Program-made: the position numbers
Origin: Octopus vulgaris
Lineage: Eukaryota
Assembly: GCA_951406725.2 (NCBI GenBank)
Contig: OX597825.1
Coordinates: 1,178,001-1,242,000, forward strand
DNA length: 64,000 bases
Direction of reading: 5' to 3'
Shown here: positions 3,001 to 60,000 of the stretch, piece after piece
How the letters are laid out: every line of letters starts with the position of its first letter
How positions within the stretch are numbered: position 1 is the stretch's first letter

Positions 3001-6000
3001 AAAATATAAGTTTCATGGGCTGTAGATGGAGTAGTTCATATGAGGACATCATAAACTGAGTCTGTAAAATGTTCAGATGGCTCATTAGAAGCAGTTGCTA
3101 TCATTAAGGAGATGCAATTAGCATTGGAGTTGGTTGCTCTGTAGTTACAGTTGCCAGAATGAGAACTGGGCTGAGGGAGCAGACAGACATCATAGTTGGT
3201 ATAGTCGTTGCTTTACCAAACCTCATGATATTGCTTCTTATAAATCTTGATTTTTATGACTATACCAACTATGGTGTCTGTCTGCTCCCTCAGCCCTACC
3301 CCTAACAGATACAGCCCTCTGTTCTCTCAGCCTTAGATATACAAAGGTTTTGTTAAACTAGTTGATAAATTAGAACTAACCCCATAAAAACATAAAAAAT
3401 CTGTGACAAGCAGAGTCTGTAACAATGTATATCTTCTAGAAAAGCTTAGTAAATTCTATGCTGGAGTAAGAACAGCATATTCTTTGTCTATCTCCTTAAC
3501 TTCTTGGAGATTTTAGGTATAATTATACTAATGTGTCCATCTGTTCTAATTTAATTAAATTCTATGTCTTTGTGCAACTGAAGATTGCTCTACATTTTAA
3601 ACTGATGTAATCATTGCATTGTTCAATTAAATGGAGTTGCATGAAACGATCGTACTGCATACCTGTCACAACTCCAAGTATCTTACTCCCTTCCCTCACT
3701 CTGTATCCCACTTCCTCAGCCAACCCCCTCATCCACTATCACATGTGATCCCAGATCCTTAAAAACACTTACCTCCTCTAACATCTCACCATTTATACTC
3801 ACATCCATCCTATCAGCCATTCCATCTTCTAAACATCTCATCACCTTACTCCTAGCTACATTCACTTTCAGTTTCCTCCTCTCACACACTCTTCCAAACT
3901 CTACCACCAGTCTCCATGGTTGCTCTTCTGAATCCGCCACCAGTGCTGTATCAATCAGCAAACAACTGACTCACCTGCCATTCTCTCCATTTTCTCCCAC
4001 CATTTGGGCTCCCCTACCAAAGGTTCTAGCATTTACCTCTCACCACACTATCCATATATATACACTCACTTATATATACACTCACTTATATACACTCACT
4101 ATCCATATATATACACTCACTTACCACCCACTTTCTCTATAAAAACTCTGAACAGCTCTCAACAATCTACCATCAATACCTGCTACATTGCATCCCTATC
4201 TTCATGGTCACATGCCTTCTTTAAGTCCATAAAGGCCCTATACATCTCCCTCCCTTTTGCCAAAAACTTCTCATACATCTGTCTTACTACAAATACTTGA
4301 TCTGCACATGCCCTTCAACTCCTAAAGCCACACTGCTCCTCCCCGAGTACACTCTCTGTCTGGTTCCTCATCCTTACAATCGGAATTCTTCCATACAGTT
4401 TACCAACCTCGCACAACAGACTTATACCCCTTACAATCTTGAAGTTATGACTTTGATACCTGGACCAGGCTGTGTGTTGTGTTCTTGAGCAGGACACTTT
4501 ATTTCACATTGCTCCAGTCAACTAAGCTTTAGAAATGAGTTGCGATGTCACTGGTGCCAAGCTGTATTGGCCTTTGCCTTTCCATTGGACAACATCAGTG
4601 GCATGGAAAAGGGGAAGCTGGTATGCATCGGTGACTGCTGGTCTTTCACAAACAATCTTGCCCAGACTTGCGTCTCAGAGCACTTTCTAAATGCAATCCC
4701 ATGGTCATTCATGACTGAAAGGGGTCTAAGCAAAGTAGGAAAAGCTACAGATATATATATTTCTTTATTGCCCACAAAGGGCTAAACATAGAGGGGACAA
4801 ACAAGGAGAGACAAATGGATTAAGTCGATTACATCGACCCCAGTGCGAAACTGGTACTTTATTTATCGACCCTGAAAGGATGGAAGGCAAAGTCGATCTC
4901 AGTGGAATTTGAACTCAGAACGTAAAGACAGATGAAATACCGCTAAGCATTTCACCTGGCATGCTAATGTGTCTGCCAGCTACATATATATATATATATA
5001 TATATATATATCATCATCATCATCATCATCATCATCATCGTTTGATGATGATGATGATGATGATATATATATATATATATATATATATGTAGCTGGCAGA
5101 CACATTAGCATGCCAGGTGAAATGCTTAGCGGTATATATATATATATATATATATATATATTCCTATTCCAAGTGTATGTCCTACTGGATCTCAGTCAGT
5201 TCAATTTGGACTGAAGAGACTCTAAAAGCTTCAGTTATTGTTAGTGTTGTTTCATCCACAGCCTGGATCCAACAGAGCTGTGATCGAAGGCATCACTACT
5301 GTGACTATTCTGCAAGTTATTTTCTTTCTTAGAAATAGTCAACCCAAAATGACATTCTCCACCATGTCTTCAGTTTCTGAATAGGGTAAGGTGGGATTTG
5401 AAGGATTAGTGCATTGCTACATGTAGCTGGCCATGTGACCACATAGAATCTCCTTTCATTACTCAAGACCATCTTAATTTACAAGATAGCTCTCTTGCCA
5501 AGTTAAAACTCAAGTCCATCAACCTATGCTTCTTAACTTCTGAATTACGAAAGATGTCAATAGAACACTTTGTTTTCAATTGCTCTCATGACTTACTACA
5601 ATGCACCACTTGAAAGCTATTTTGTTTTATTGGTTTCTAACTTTGGCACAGAACAAACAACCCCAGTACTTGTCTGGTTCTTATTTTTTCAGCCTTGCAA
5701 TTTTGACAGGATTTGAACTCAGAATATAAAGGAACACCACAAAATATACCACTCAGCATTTTGTATAATGTTCTATCAATTCTACCAGTTTTTAACCTTA
5801 AAACTGCTGTAATATATTGAGCAGGGAGCCATTGGGAGTAAGGTGATGAGATGTTTAGGAGATGGAATGGCCGGTAGGATGGATATGAGTATAAATGGTG
5901 AGATGTTAGAGGAGGTGAGTGTTTTTAAGGATCTGGGATCACATGTGATAGTGGATGGGGGGGGTTGGCTGAGGAAGTGGGATACAGAGTGAGGGAGGGG

Positions 6001-57000: not shown

Positions 57001-60000
57001 ATTTCTTATATATCTTCTCACCATCAAATGCTCAACAGATAATATATTTTTTGATAAACTATTCTCAAAAGAGATGGAATGGTTACAGCTAGAATTCGTT
57101 TGTTCAAACCTCTGCTTGATCAGTGCCGATCTGTTGTGAAACGGTTCTCACATAAAGTATATCTTCCATTTTCTCATATGTTTTATATTTTCTCATCTTC
57201 CAGTGAACACACCCAAGGAAGATACTACAAATTATATTTGAACTGCACGTGTTTATAATAATAATTTGGCCTTGACTGTTCCAAGACAACACTTCCTATT
57301 GGTGCCAATAACTATAACTCTGCTTTTTGACAATTACATAGAACTTTTATTAATGCTGTGTTTTTTTTATTTTTTAGTTTTCTACAGAGAAGAGAATCTT
57401 TACACAGAACACTATATTTATTCTTTTCATATGCATTATTATCAAATGAATTAATATTTTACCCAGATTATGAAAATGACATTGCAAGTGTGTGGTGTCA
57501 ATTGTCTCAACAGACCATAAATTATTTGTTGCCAAATGTAAAATGTAAAAAAAAAAGGCAATTTTTTTTTTCCTTAATAAAGTGCATTATGAAGCATTCC
57601 TTTCCTGAAAGGATTCCAAACCAATTTCAAATGAATAAAATATTGAATGTGAAATTTAAAAGTTTGAAGTGTAATTTGAATAAAACAGAAAAATATAACA
57701 TGTTAAAATGATATTTAAAGAAAAAAAAAAAGAAAAAAGTTTTTATTTGGTTCACAAAGAAAATTAGTCTCACTGACATTCATATTTTCTGAATTCATTT
57801 TTGGTTAATGTGTTATCAGCAGAAGAAAGAAACAACATTTAATGACCACTTCAACAATATTAGCTCTACATTGTTTCAGTAACAAAGGACTCTCATACGT
57901 TTTTGATTGGTCAGGTTTTATTCTGATGGTAAAGAAAGATACAAAAAAAGTATAAAAAAAGAAAGAAAAAAACCTGTAGTTATTGATCTAAATGAATAAC
58001 CTAAGATGCTTCCAAATTCTTGTTCAAGCTATAAATCCAGATAACAGTTGTTTCTTTAAAAAAAAAAAAAAATTAAAACTAAAAGACAAGAATTTTTTTT
58101 TTAAAAGGACCGACTAAAATGAAAAATAAATATTCTATCAAGACTATAATGCAAAATGGTAATGAATATTAGATGCCAGGGAAAAAAAATGAATAATTAT
58201 AATGATGATAATTTCCAATAATAGACAATATTTCATGAGCTGCAACATTTAAAAGGAAGATACTTTTTTAAAAAAGTAATTTTTTATTACAAATGTCTAC
58301 AAATATATATTTGGAAATTCATTTTACGCTATTTTTTGATATGTCATAGATTTTCATATTTTTTCTCATTTCACCTTGTAATTATATCTTTTTCCAGTTA
58401 ATGTCTTATGTCTACAATAACTGAATCATCATCATCCTCATCATTTTAATTTCCACATTCCTATACTTGCAAAGTTTGAATGAAATTTGTGGAGGTTGAT
58501 TTTCTATGGATGCCTTTCCTGTTGCCAACCCTCAAGGCAATATTTCCCTGTAGCTAAACATGATTCCACAGAAAACTGGACACAAAATACACTGTTTGTA
58601 TGGTGGTGATGCCCATGTACAACCATTATGCAATGGCAAGAAAATGAGACACTAAAACACACTTACACACAACAGGCTTCTTCCAGTTTCCTTAAACCAA
58701 ATTCCTCTTAAAGCTGTGTTCAGTCCAGAGCTATAGCAGAAGACACTTGCCCAAAGTTCCACACACAGGTACTGGACCTAAAAACCATGGGATTAGGAAG
58801 GAAATCTCTCAACCATGCAACCATGTCTGCACATAAATATGTTTATATAATATATTTTTGGTTGACATGGTTCATTCTTTATATTTGACCAATCTAGAGT
58901 CATTTTGTTTTTGCCATCATTTATTCTCATAATATATATATATTAATGTCAAGACTGACTTGATATATGTGTGTATATATATATATGATGATGATATATA
59001 TATATATATATATATATATATACACACACACATATACATATACACACATTATACTGACAAATGGATAATAATGTTACTAAACTTAGGTACTGTCTTAGAG
59101 ATGAATGTCTGTCTATGAAATACTTAAGGAATTCACTGATACAATGCACATATTTTGAGAATAAGCCAACGATGGATCCTCTTTGTGATTGTTTGAGGTG
59201 CTAGAAATACCAGGCAAGTCTCTTTTTCAAATCCCTTTCTACATTGAATACAGTATTGGGTATACCATTCCCAAAACAAGAGAAACTTGTTCAGAGTTGA
59301 AAAGATAGATAAAGAAATAGATAAACCTTTGGTCATCCATTTGGTCAACCAGAAATAAAAAATGACATTAATATATATATATTATGAGAATAAATGATGG
59401 CAAAAACAAAATGACTCTAGATTGGTCAAATATAAAGAATGAACCATGTCAACCAAAAATATATTATATAAACATATTTATGTGCAGACATGGTTGCATG
59501 GTTGAGAGATTTCCTTCCTAATCCCATGGTTTTTAGGTCCAGTACCTGTGTGTGGAACTTTGGGCAAGTGTCTTCTGCTATAGCTCTGGACTGAACACAG
59601 CTTTAAGAGGAATTTGGTTTAAGGAAACTGGCTCCCATGCAAGTAAAAAACACCTTTTGAGCATGGTTATTGCCAGAACCACCTGACTGGCCTTTGTGCC
59701 AGTGGCACATAAAAAGCACCTACTACACTCTTGGAGTGATTGGCATAAAGAAGGGCATCCAGCTGTAGAAACTCTGCCAGACCAGATAGGAGCCTGGTGC
59801 AGGGGAACGGGCCGGGTTGGGAGGTTGGGTTAAGGAAGAAGCTGTGGACCAACAAGTCTCGTTTGAAGGAGGGGAGGGGTTGGTTAGGGAAGATGTGCGA
59901 AGTGGAAGGGTCGGACTGGACTTGCTGGAAGGCTCGGAGAATGGTGCATTGGAGAAGTAGGGTGGTGGGGTGGTAGGTGAGGGGAAACAGGAGATGGCAG

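What the first reader, a model, noticed from the sequence alone, without database searches (positions are those of the whole stretch)
3168..59631. Window-wide series of local inverted duplications of graded age: possible recurrent fold-back mutation process and dsRNA source
Seen: at least nine inverted pairs. Two look perfect (4937-5135, 58683/59631), others are slightly diverged (3168/3296, 3593/6095, 10236/10444, 50895/51190) and others old (21029/21340, 22560/29108, 50374/51610). Several copy a TE fragment together with its flank, so independent TE insertion does not explain them, and some end in self-complementary (AT)n tracts. Inference: template switching primed at palindromic microsatellites or microhomologies keeps producing hairpins. 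Established: coleoid cephalopods have very extensive ADAR A-to-I editing, which needs such duplexes. The link to editing here is a hypothesis.
Basis: partly seen in the sequence, partly recalled or inferred. Interest (0 to 1): 0.7.

Follow-up and report, generated by a model that had tools for sequence, protein, structure and literature searches.

The report
Mixed local inverted repeats in octopus DNA
This stretch of octopus genome does hold many nearby inverted repeats, but they are a mixed bag: one or two true fold-back copies, several hairpins of unknown origin, pairs of transposon copies and one chance match, so a single hairpin-making process is not shown.

Summary
The window is octopod DNA, dense in SINEs. 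Eight of the nine listed pairs are real; 21029/21340 is at chance level. I found one more hairpin, 52827-53094.

- **58683-58951 / 59363-59631:** perfect, 269/269. The copy carries an internally truncated SINE fragment plus about 115 nt of that SINE's upstream flank. It is a DNA-level inverted duplication, not a transposition.
- **4937-5135:** an almost loop-less palindrome made of a SINE 3' end plus its microsatellite tail.
- **3593/6095:** the arms belong to a dispersed repeat family that runs on past the left arm. This is a pair of transposon copies or a copied transposon fragment, not terminal repeats.
- **3168, 10236, 50887, 52827:** hairpins with no target-site duplication and no relatives found. 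Their origin is open.

Inverted pairs do not outnumber direct pairs overall (68 v 61). An excess appears only among two-copy local pairs (9 v 2, p about 0.07). Only 3 of 9 pairs have an arm end near an (AT)n tract. The link to ADAR editing was not testable here; octopus richness in such duplexes is already published (PMC5625713).

Post hoc, 3 of 10 repeats abut a SINE 5' end.

The parts
58683..58951 (.). Source arm of the perfect inverted duplication. It holds part of a minus-strand SINE 'B' copy (about 58683-58836) plus about 115 nt of that SINE's upstream flank (about 58837-58951).
   Evidence: 269/269 identity with 59363-59631. Family-B homology continues to the left of the arm, to 58664, 58649 and 58444.
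59363..59631 (.). Inverted copy of 58683-58951. The SINE B fragment inside it is cut off internally at 59631. A 3'-truncated SINE 'A' fragment starts about 59636-59639.
   Evidence: All family-B matches stop at 59629-59631. Alignment A2 shows the copy lacks the next 11 nt of B and its microsatellite. RNA fold of 58670-59645: -571.9 kcal/mol, z -60. The A fragment lacks its 3' part and tail.
4937..5135 (.). Near loop-less palindrome. It consists of the last 47 nt of SINE 'C' (copy 4800-4985), then (AT)14 and (ATC)n, a centre, then (GAT)n and (AT)13, then the reverse complement of the 47 nt. (TA)14 follows at 5133-5161.
   Evidence: 92/92 identical plus one indel. Only the left arm continues into the SINE body (A1). 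DNA fold -108.2 kcal/mol, z -23.8.
3168..3296 (.). Hairpin with 39-nt arms (38/39 identical) and a 51-nt spacer.
   Evidence: RNA fold -82.7 kcal/mol, z -13.6. No TSD. No protein-database relative of the spanning ORF.
3593..3852 (.). Left copy of a dispersed repeat family. The family homology runs on to at least 4109.
   Evidence: 96.2% identical to 5835-6095. Seven database ORFs align to 3723-4109.
5835..6095 (.). Right, inverted and truncated copy of the same repeat family.
   Evidence: Database homologues match 5836-6048, and every match stops at 5836, the inner end of the arm. No TSD.
10236..10444 (.). AT-rich hairpin with 61-nt core arms and an 88-nt loop. It lies directly upstream of the 5' end of minus-strand SINE A copy 9917-10235.
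   Evidence: RNA fold -77.3 kcal/mol, z -12.2.
50887..51198 (.). Hairpin with 146-nt arms (92.5% identical; the core 50913-51172 has 4 differences in 120) and a 20-nt loop.
   Evidence: (RNA fold -212.2 kcal/mol, z -31.8). No TSD. No relatives of an arm ORF among 1.84 billion representative proteins.
50374..50596 (.). Old outer arm, 74% identical to 51407-51612. It encloses hairpin 50887-51198 but is not continuous with it.
   Evidence: There is no similarity between 50597-50886 and 51199-51406.
51407..51612 (.). Partner of 50374-50596.
22555..22841 (.). Old arm, 83% identical to 28828-29113, with weak collinear extensions at 22419-22537 and 21687-21803.
28828..29113 (.). Partner of 22555-22841, with extensions at 29250-29351 and 29497-29614.
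52827..53094 (.). The strong arms are about 52839-52938 and 52990-53082. It lies 5-17 nt upstream of the 5' end of SINE B copy 53099-53260.
   Evidence: (RNA fold -129.6 kcal/mol, z -14.7).
21029..21340 (.). The claimed 'old' pair. It is not distinguishable from chance.
   Evidence: 24/29 match at 21032-21060/21308-21336. 4.7% of random local placements score as high. Fold z -1.15.

Best explanation
The series is heterogeneous. It is not the trace of one process. I sort it into four classes.

(1) Shown: 59363-59631 is a young DNA-level inverted segmental duplication of 58683-58951, less than about 1.5 My old on a rough clock. A polymerase copied 269 nt of nearby sequence in reverse complement and the product was joined 411 nt away. 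I infer a replication template switch or fold-back / templated-insertion repair of a break.

(2) Probable: 4937-5135 arose by snap-back copying of a SINE 3' end plus its microsatellite tail.

(3) Open: hairpins 3168-3296, 10236-10444, 50887-51198 and 52827-53094 are either older products of the same kind of event or non-autonomous fold-back/MITE-like elements.

(4) Probable: the long-range pairs 3593/6095, 22555/29113 and 50374/51612 are two copies of one transposon family in opposite orientation, or copied transposon fragments.

21029/21340 is chance. If transcribed, every real pair would give a long duplex, and therefore a generic ADAR substrate.
For: Class 1:
- Family-B SINE homology continues beyond the left arm but stops exactly at 59629-59631 in the right copy.
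- The copy also contains about 115 nt of non-SINE flank at 100% identity, while other B copies in the window are 72-84% identical.
- There is no TSD.

Class 2:
- The 47 nt are identical between the arms, while the other family-C copies differ widely in that segment.
- Only the left arm continues into the SINE.
- The loop is only 11 nt.

Class 3:
- 0 of 9 repeats has a TSD of 6 nt or more. The best is 5 nt, offset by 3, with null P(>=5) of 5.5%.
- No second copy in the window.
- No database relatives.

Class 4:
- Seven database ORFs (E 4e-16 to 8e-11) align across the inner boundary of the left arm of 3593/6095, while the right copy stops there.
- No transposase domain in 27 + 9 ORFs scanned.

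Mixed nature:
- SINE-SINE pairs are orientation-neutral, 5 inverted v 6 direct, whereas two-copy pairs are 9 inverted v 2 direct.
Against: - With one 64-kb window and no octopus genome to search, copy numbers of the hairpin arms are unknown. All four hairpins could be MITE-like families, or all could be fold-back products.
- For 4937-5135, a tail-to-tail second insertion of a severely 5'-truncated copy of the same young SINE into the microsatellite tail gives the same picture.
- The perfect pair could not be checked against reads, so an assembly error is not excluded.
- The 9 v 2 excess is not significant at 5%.
- Short-range perfect inverted repeats show no excess over direct ones. This argues against a very active hairpin-making process.
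Confidence: 0.6

Rival explanations
1. One recurrent fold-back / template-switch process, primed at palindromic (AT)n tracts or microhomologies, produced most or all of the pairs at different times.
For: - Identities are graded from 100% to 74%.
- No TSDs.
- 3 of 9 pairs have an arm end within 10 nt of an (AT)>=5 tract, against a 3.6% background.
- Two-copy local pairs are 9 inverted v 2 direct.
- High-identity cover (>95%, >=40 nt, partner within 2 kb) is 1330 nt inverted v 217 nt direct.
Against: - The 3593/6095 arms are a dispersed repeat.
- In the perfect pair the (AT)6 tract lies 8 nt inside both arms. In 4937-5135 the centre is in (ATC)n/(GAT)n, which is not self-complementary.
- 6 of 9 pairs have no (AT)n tract within 50 nt of any arm end.
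- No excess of short perfect hairpins.
- No overall excess of inverted pairs.
Confidence: 0.15
2. Everything is transposon-derived. The hairpins are MITE/fold-back elements and the long-range pairs are inverted transposon copies. No special mutational process is involved.
For: - The published O. vulgaris repeat annotation lists TIR elements, MITEs and unclassified TIRs, and about 66% repeats (PMC13282606, passages).
- The 3593/6095 arms are dispersed.
- 10236-10444 could carry a TA duplication hidden in its palindromic ends.
- A 64-kb sample cannot reveal families of fewer than tens of thousands of copies.
Against: - The copy at 59363-59631 is an internally truncated SINE fragment plus unique flank at 100% identity. 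No transposition mechanism yields this.
- No TSD of 6 nt or more in 9 of 9.
- No transposase remnants.
- No relatives for the two hairpin ORFs searched. These are weak negatives, because the queries are short and non-coding.
Confidence: 0.12
3. The inverted copies are made at or next to SINE 5' junctions. A break associated with retrotransposition, or a break repaired with captured SINE cDNA, undergoes fold-back synthesis on the upstream flank before joining.
For: - 3 of 10 repeats have an outer end within 20 nt upstream of a SINE 5' end that points away from them (10236|A, 53094|B, 59631|A). Random placement gives a mean of 0.11 and P(>=3) = 2e-4. With any SINE end allowed, 4 are observed, P about 1e-3.
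- There is no continuation of the repeats beyond those SINEs.
- 3' flanks give high inverted-match scores only through microsatellites.
Against: - The pattern was noticed after the fact.
- I set the 5' limit of the A reference at 10235. Homology with other copies supports it only to 10228.
- The A fragment beside the perfect pair is 3'-truncated, tail-less and 72-90% identical to other copies. It looks older than the 100%-identical duplication.
- 7 of 10 repeats show no such neighbour.
Confidence: 0.08
4. The perfect pair, and perhaps 4937-5135, are assembly or library artefacts such as chimeric fold-back molecules.
For: 100% identity over 269 nt. Palindromes and microsatellites are error-prone in assembly. 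This is my own knowledge, not tested here.
Against: - The structure is small and internal, 949 nt with a unique 411-nt spacer. Its breakpoints lie in ordinary sequence, not at a contig end or gap; the window has no N.
- Diverged examples of the same architecture exist nearby.
Confidence: 0.05

Closest known systems
Template-switch mutations (TSMs) and fold-back / templated inverted insertions at replication forks or breaks. Sources: PMC5453318 (search listing only); PMC8794818 (passages); PMC11724301 (listing and start of abstract).
   Same: A reverse-complement copy of nearby sequence is made in one event and gives an instantly perfect hairpin. No TSD. The copy is not bounded by transposon ends.
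   Different: Published TSM events are mostly tens of bases. The passage read gives 'up to 59 bp', and the yeast insertions are about 5-34 bp. Here the arms are 39-269 nt with spacers up to 411 nt. No ancestral or outgroup sequence was available to show single-event origin.
Neighbouring inverted repeat copies as ADAR substrates, such as Alu pairs in primates, and palindromic repeat families such as the roughly 200-bp Harbinger of Xenopus tropicalis (PMC5625713, passages).
   Same: - Local near-perfect duplexes within 2 kb.
- The window also holds 5 inverted SINE-SINE pairs within 8 kb.
- 3593/6095 is a pair of copies of one dispersed family.
   Different: - The best duplexes here (58683/59631, 4937-5135, 50887-51198) are not two full copies of one repeat.
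- SINE-SINE pairs in the window are only 72-78% identical.
- No palindromic multi-copy family was detected in the window.
MITEs / Foldback-type transposons
   Same: Short hairpin-like units of 130-310 nt, with arms making up most of the element.
   Different: - No TSD beyond chance.
- No second copy in the window.
- No database relatives for the two hairpin ORFs searched.
- Multi-copy status is untestable here.
Long inverted repeats / hairpin-RNA loci catalogued across eukaryotes (LIRBase, PMC8728187; listing and start of abstract only).
   Same: Long inverted repeats that could be transcribed into hairpin RNA.
   Different: That is a catalogue, not a mechanism. I did not check whether octopus is included in it.

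Membership tests
Template-switch / fold-back inverted duplication | One arm is a reverse-complement copy of nearby sequence that is not delimited by the ends of a mobile element. | tested here: met
   - 58683/59631: the copy ends inside SINE B and includes about 115 nt of flank.
- 4937-5135: the copy starts inside SINE C.
- Not met for 3593/6095, whose arms are a dispersed family.
- Unknown for the four other hairpins.
Template-switch / fold-back inverted duplication | Single-event origin shown against an ancestral, outgroup or alternative-haplotype sequence. | not testable with these tools
   No cephalopod genome or read collection was available.
Template-switch / fold-back inverted duplication | Microhomology or a short pre-existing inverted repeat at the switch points. 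| tested here: inconclusive
   The junctions are sharp to the base, and the neighbouring bases show no extended match. Without the pre-event allele, microhomology cannot be scored. An (AT)n tract lies within 10 nt of an arm end in 3 of 9 pairs.
MITE / Foldback transposon | Target-site duplication flanking the terminal inverted repeats. | tested here: not met
   0 of 9 repeats has a TSD of 6 nt or more. The best is 5 nt at an offset of -3 (52839/53082), and the null P(>=5) is 5.5%. A TA duplication cannot be excluded for 10236-10444.
MITE / Foldback transposon | Many dispersed copies with the same ends. | not testable with these tools
   No second copy in the 64-kb window. Translated searches of 3108-3302 and 51084-51209 found nothing, but short non-coding queries make these weak negatives.
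Autonomous TIR DNA transposon (for 3593-6095, 22555-29113, 50374-51612) | Transposase coding remnant between the arms, and arms that are the element's termini. | tested here: not met
   No transposase domain in the ORFs between the arms. The only coding remnant between 22555 and 29113 is a LINE RT/PHD fragment. In 3593/6095 the repeat family runs through the inner end of the left arm.
Inverted pair of copies of one dispersed repeat | Both arms belong to a multi-copy family. | tested here: met
   3593/6095: homologues cover 3723-4109 on the left and 5836-6048 on the right. This is also true of 5 SINE-SINE inverted pairs. It was not tested for 22555/29113 or 50374/51612.
ADAR hyper-editing substrate | Long, nearly perfect intramolecular duplex. 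| tested here: met
   Predicted folds have z-scores from -12 to -60. 1330 nt of the window lie in >95% inverted matches of 40 nt or more within 2 kb. Of these, 1017 nt are not microsatellite; that subtotal is my own sum of the intervals listed.
ADAR hyper-editing substrate | Both arms transcribed in one RNA, with clustered A-to-G mismatches. | not testable with these tools
   No RNA data and no gene model for the window.

The most novel reading that the evidence does not exclude
In octopus, local inverted duplications are made preferentially at SINE 5' junctions, by fold-back synthesis on the upstream flank at breaks linked to retrotransposition. On this reading it is this process, rather than palindromic repeat families or chance pairs of SINEs, that gives the octopus genome its published and exceptional load of near-perfect duplex-forming loci feeding ADAR hyper-editing.
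Probability: 0.07. Interest if true: 0.7.

Novelty: new member of a known kind. Interest (0 to 1): 0.33.

Why it matters
Porath et al. (PMC5625713; passages read) measured how many loci can form long, nearly perfect local duplexes. Octopus bimaculoides had one of the two highest fractions among 19 animals (4.4e-3), together with the strongest hyper-editing. They explained the frog value by a palindromic Harbinger family. They left octopus unexplained, because no repeat annotation was available to them.

This window shows what such loci look like in an octopus. The tightest duplexes are not SINE-SINE pairs, which are only 72-78% identical here. They are one proven inverted segmental copy, one microsatellite-centred palindrome and a few hairpins of unknown origin.

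If that mix holds genome-wide, the source of octopus dsRNA becomes a question about DNA repair and replication, not only about transposon load. From one window this is a lead, not a result.

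Tried and rejected
- **Rfam and tRNA scans:** nothing found, so no RNA-gene explanation.
- **One large palindrome at 50374-51612:** rejected. There is no similarity between the inner and outer arms' intervening segments.
- **SINEs inserted into formerly longer repeats, which would explain why arms end at SINE ends:** rejected. 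The repeats do not resume beyond the SINEs, apart from (AT)n.
- **A fourth SINE-junction case at 13548-13585:** rejected. Its right half lies inside the SINE itself.
- **A fourth case at 51612:** rejected. The SINE A copy starts at 51754, 142 nt away.
- **TPRT-coupled origin of the perfect pair:** judged unlikely. The neighbouring SINE A fragment is 3'-truncated and lacks a tail.
- **TIR transposon for 3593-6095:** rejected.
- **Pfam on 36 ORFs in and around the arms:** only sub-threshold noise.
- **Translated database searches:** the ORF over hairpin 3168-3296 and the arm ORF of 50887-51198 found nothing.
- **Literature:** searches for a published account of fold-back duplications as the octopus dsRNA source listed none among the 20 and 12 papers shown. 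I did not go through the remaining matches.
- **Not possible:** no eukaryotic genome, read or RNA collection was available. Copy number, read support, orthologous empty sites and editing all stayed unchecked.
- **Not opened:** the supplementary figures of PMC5625713 (S5) and PMC9989829 (S3F) bear on the density of octopus inverted repeats.

Full report
**What the window is.** It has 64,000 bases, no N and 32-38% G+C. A LINE-type ORF at 24131-24694(-) matches Octopus vulgaris and O. bimaculoides proteins at 65-79% identity (13 hits) and carries a weak PHD finger. The window is dense in microsatellites (136 TRF rows; 65 perfect (AT)>=5 tracts).

It holds three SINE-like families, which I named A, B and C and annotated from in-window copies (35 copies or fragments).
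- Family A has a (GAT)n(AT)n tail, and most copies are 5'-truncated.
- Family B has a tRNA-like head and an internal or terminal microsatellite.
- Family C ends just before (AT)n.

Rfam at gathering thresholds and ARAGORN found nothing.

**Checking the observation.** Eight of the nine listed pairs are real.

| Pair | Identity | Spacer or loop |
|---|---|---|
| 58683-58951 / 59363-59631 | 269/269 | 411 nt |
| 4937-5028 / 5043-5135 | 92/92 plus one 1-nt indel | 11 nt unpaired in the fold |
| 3168-3206 / 3258-3296 | 38/39 | 51 nt |
| 3593-3852 / 5835-6095 | 96.2% | 1982 nt |
| 10236-10296 / 10385-10444 | 93.5% | 88 nt |
| 50887-51032 / 51053-51198 | 92.5% | 20 nt |
| 22555-22841 / 28828-29113 | 83% | 5986 nt |
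| 50374-50596 / 51407-51612 | 74% | 810 nt |

21029/21340 shrinks to 24 matches in 29 columns. 4.7% of 300 random local placements in this window reach that score, and its fold is unremarkable (z -1.15). I found an unlisted hairpin at 52827-53094, a weak pair at 41633/42905 and a weak collinear extension of the 22555 pair (21687-21803/29497-29614). As a chance control, the same search against the reversed, uncomplemented sequence gave no local match of 80 bits or more.

**Are inverted pairs in excess?** Overall they are not.
- There are 68 inverted v 61 direct pairs at E<=1e-5. Within 3 kb the count is 11 v 11.
- At 80 bits or more and within 8 kb there are 15 inverted and 8 direct pairs (binomial p = 0.21).
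- Sorting these 23 by hand: SINE-SINE pairs are 5 inverted v 6 direct, as random insertion predicts. One inverted hit is microsatellite. Pairs with no third copy in the window are 9 inverted v 2 direct, and both direct ones are tandem. That is two-sided p about 0.065 by my own arithmetic.
- High-identity cover (>95% over 40 nt or more, partner within 2 kb, the criterion of Porath et al.) is 1330 nt inverted, of which 1017 nt is not microsatellite by my sum of the listed intervals. Direct cover is 217 nt, from one perfect minisatellite.
- At the short scale there is no excess. Perfect non-simple arms of at least 12, 14 and 16 nt with spacers up to 200 nt number 16, 10 and 9 inverted against 89, 31 and 22 direct. 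Mirror controls gave 13, 5 and 1. All 10 inverted segments listed at the 14-nt cut-off but one lie inside the five known hairpins.

So the signal is a handful of sizeable young inverted structures, not a pervasive hairpin-making bias.

**The perfect pair is a true inverted segmental duplication.**
- The left arm consists of part of a minus-strand family-B SINE plus about 115 nt upstream of that SINE's 5' end.
- Homology to other B copies continues beyond the left arm's outer end, to 58664, 58649 and at low identity 58444. In the right copy every B match stops at 59629-59631.
- Alignment A2 shows that the right copy lacks the next 11 nt of the element and its microsatellite.
- A SINE retrocopy can lose its 5' end but not its 3' end, and it cannot carry upstream flank. 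The two arms are 100% identical, whereas other B copies are 72-84% alike.

Independent insertion is therefore excluded. The left arm is the source and the right arm is the copy. There is no TSD and no extended match at either junction. I took a clock from a passage of PMC13282606 (Jukes-Cantor 0.09 is about 25 My). On that clock, zero differences in 269 nt puts the event under about 1.5 My at 95%. This is a rough figure.

**The palindrome at 4937-5135.** The left arm is the last 47 nt of a family-C SINE (copy 4800-4985) followed by (AT)14 and (ATC)n. The right arm is the reverse complement of exactly that, and it ends in a further (TA)14. Only the left arm continues into the SINE body (A1).

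The centre lies between (ATC)n and (GAT)n, not in the self-complementary (AT)n.

A snap-back copy is the simplest reading. The alternative is a second, severely 5'-truncated insertion of the same young SINE, tail to tail, into the microsatellite. I recall, but did not check, that R4/Dong-clade LINEs target microsatellites. PMC13282606 lists Dong-R4 among the recently active octopus LINEs. Identity of 47/47 and near-equal tract lengths favour copying.

**3593/6095 is built from a dispersed repeat.**
- An ORF read across the left arm (3645-4139) has seven relatives among ORFs of unnamed ENA contigs (E 4e-16 to 8e-11).
- Run back against the window, they align to 3723-4109 on the left, across the arm's inner end at 3852. 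On the right they align to 5836-6048, and every match ends at 5836.

So the arms are not terminal repeats of one element. They are either two copies of one family in opposite orientation, the right one truncated, or an inverted copy of a transposon fragment. I cannot tell whether the outer 47 nt (3593-3640) are flank or the end of the repeat. There is no TSD and no Pfam domain.

**The other structures.** Hairpins 3168-3296, 10236-10444, 50887-51198 and 52827-53094 fold very strongly (z -12 to -32). They have no TSD beyond chance and no second copy in the window. For the two I could query, no database relatives turned up; these are weak negatives. In a genome of the size of the published O. vulgaris assembly, a family needs tens of thousands of copies to be seen twice in 64 kb, so MITE-like origin stays open.

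50374/51612 encloses hairpin 50887-51198 but is not continuous with it. The 22555/29113 pair and 50374/51612 are old, about 0.18 Jukes-Cantor. They are most simply two old copies of a repeat, though this was not tested.

**(AT)n association.** Three of 9 pairs have an arm end within 10 nt of an (AT)>=5 tract, against 3.6% of window positions. Six of 9 have none within 50 nt. SINE tails here are themselves (AT)n-rich, which is a confounder.

**A pattern seen in passing.** In three cases the outer end of the repeat lies within 20 nt upstream of the 5' end of a SINE that points away from it:
- 10236 next to SINE A (5' end at 10235, minus strand);
- 53094 next to SINE B (5' end at 53099, plus strand);
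- 59631 next to SINE A (5' end at 59639, plus strand).

Random placement of the 10 repeats gives a mean of 0.11 such cases and P(>=3) = 2e-4. Allowing any SINE end gives 4 observed, P about 1e-3. The repeats do not resume beyond the SINEs.

This is post hoc. I set one boundary (10235) myself; homology supports it only to 10228. The A fragment beside the perfect pair is 3'-truncated and tail-less, so it looks older than the duplication. I rate it a lead: breaks at or near SINE 5' junctions may be repaired with fold-back synthesis.

**Relation to what is known.** Reverse-complement copying of nearby sequence in a single event is the defining feature of template-switch mutations and of fold-back templated insertions. 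Sources are PMC8794818 (passages), and PMC5453318 and PMC11724301 (listing and abstract starts only). The scale here, 39-269 nt, is larger than the tens of bases described there.

That neighbouring inverted repeats make ADAR substrates is textbook. Porath et al. report that O. bimaculoides has an exceptionally high fraction (4.4e-3) of loci with a >95% inverted match of 40 bp or more within 2 kb, together with the strongest hyper-editing. Octopus was left out of their repeat-class analysis (PMC5625713, passages). By a similar but not identical measure this window has 1.6-2.1% of its bases in such matches, several-fold above that average and driven by four loci.

Zhang et al. (PMC9989829, passages) treat nearby inverted repeat copies as the main substrate across Metazoa. 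Among the papers listed by my two targeted searches (20 and 12 shown), none attributes the octopus duplex load to fold-back duplication.

**Verdict.**
- The 'window-wide single process' interpretation is only partly supported. One pair is proven to be a DNA-level inverted duplication, one is probable, four are open, three are better read as transposon copies, and one is chance.
- The editing link is plausible but generic and untested.
- The finding is a new example of known kinds of structure in a genome already known to be rich in them. Its value is as a pointer to a genome-wide test.

Noticed in passing
10235|10236, 53094|53099, 59631|59639: Three of ten local inverted repeats end within 20 nt upstream of the 5' end of a SINE that points away from them. 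Random-placement P(>=3) = 2e-4, but the test was post hoc.
   Followed up: partly
50757-50785: An interstitial telomere-like (TAACCC)4.5 tract lies about 100 nt upstream of hairpin 50887-51198.
   Followed up: no
44212-44428: A perfect minisatellite (periods 39, 63 and 102; 100% matches). It is the only high-identity local direct duplication in the window.
   Followed up: no
8579-9174, 19400-20045, 53099-53513, 63253-63675, 58444-58803: Family B is part of a longer unit of about 400 nt: head, microsatellite, then about 200 nt more. At two loci a family-A SINE sits tail to tail just after it. This suggests insertion into microsatellite tails or a composite element.
   Followed up: partly
23322-23804, 27499-27651, 10094-10228: The 5' region of SINE A is made of tandem units of about 36 nt that contain small palindromes. 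These units are expanded into arrays at some loci.
   Followed up: no
23798-24694 (-): A LINE fragment (RT C-terminus and PHD-like finger), 65-79% identical to Octopus proteins. It lies between the arms of the 22555/29113 pair.
   Followed up: partly
59723-60517 (-): A 264-aa open frame with an RYIDD-type motif, suggesting a reverse-transcriptase remnant (my reading of the translation). It has no Pfam match. It adjoins the truncated SINE A fragment beside the perfect pair.
   Followed up: partly
60001-64000 and 24001-28000: Strong local GC skew, +0.263 and -0.173, compared with 0.11 or less in absolute value in the other 14 windows.
   Followed up: no
52940-52990: The loop of hairpin 52827-53094 contains a tRNA B-box-like motif (my reading of the sequence).
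   Followed up: no
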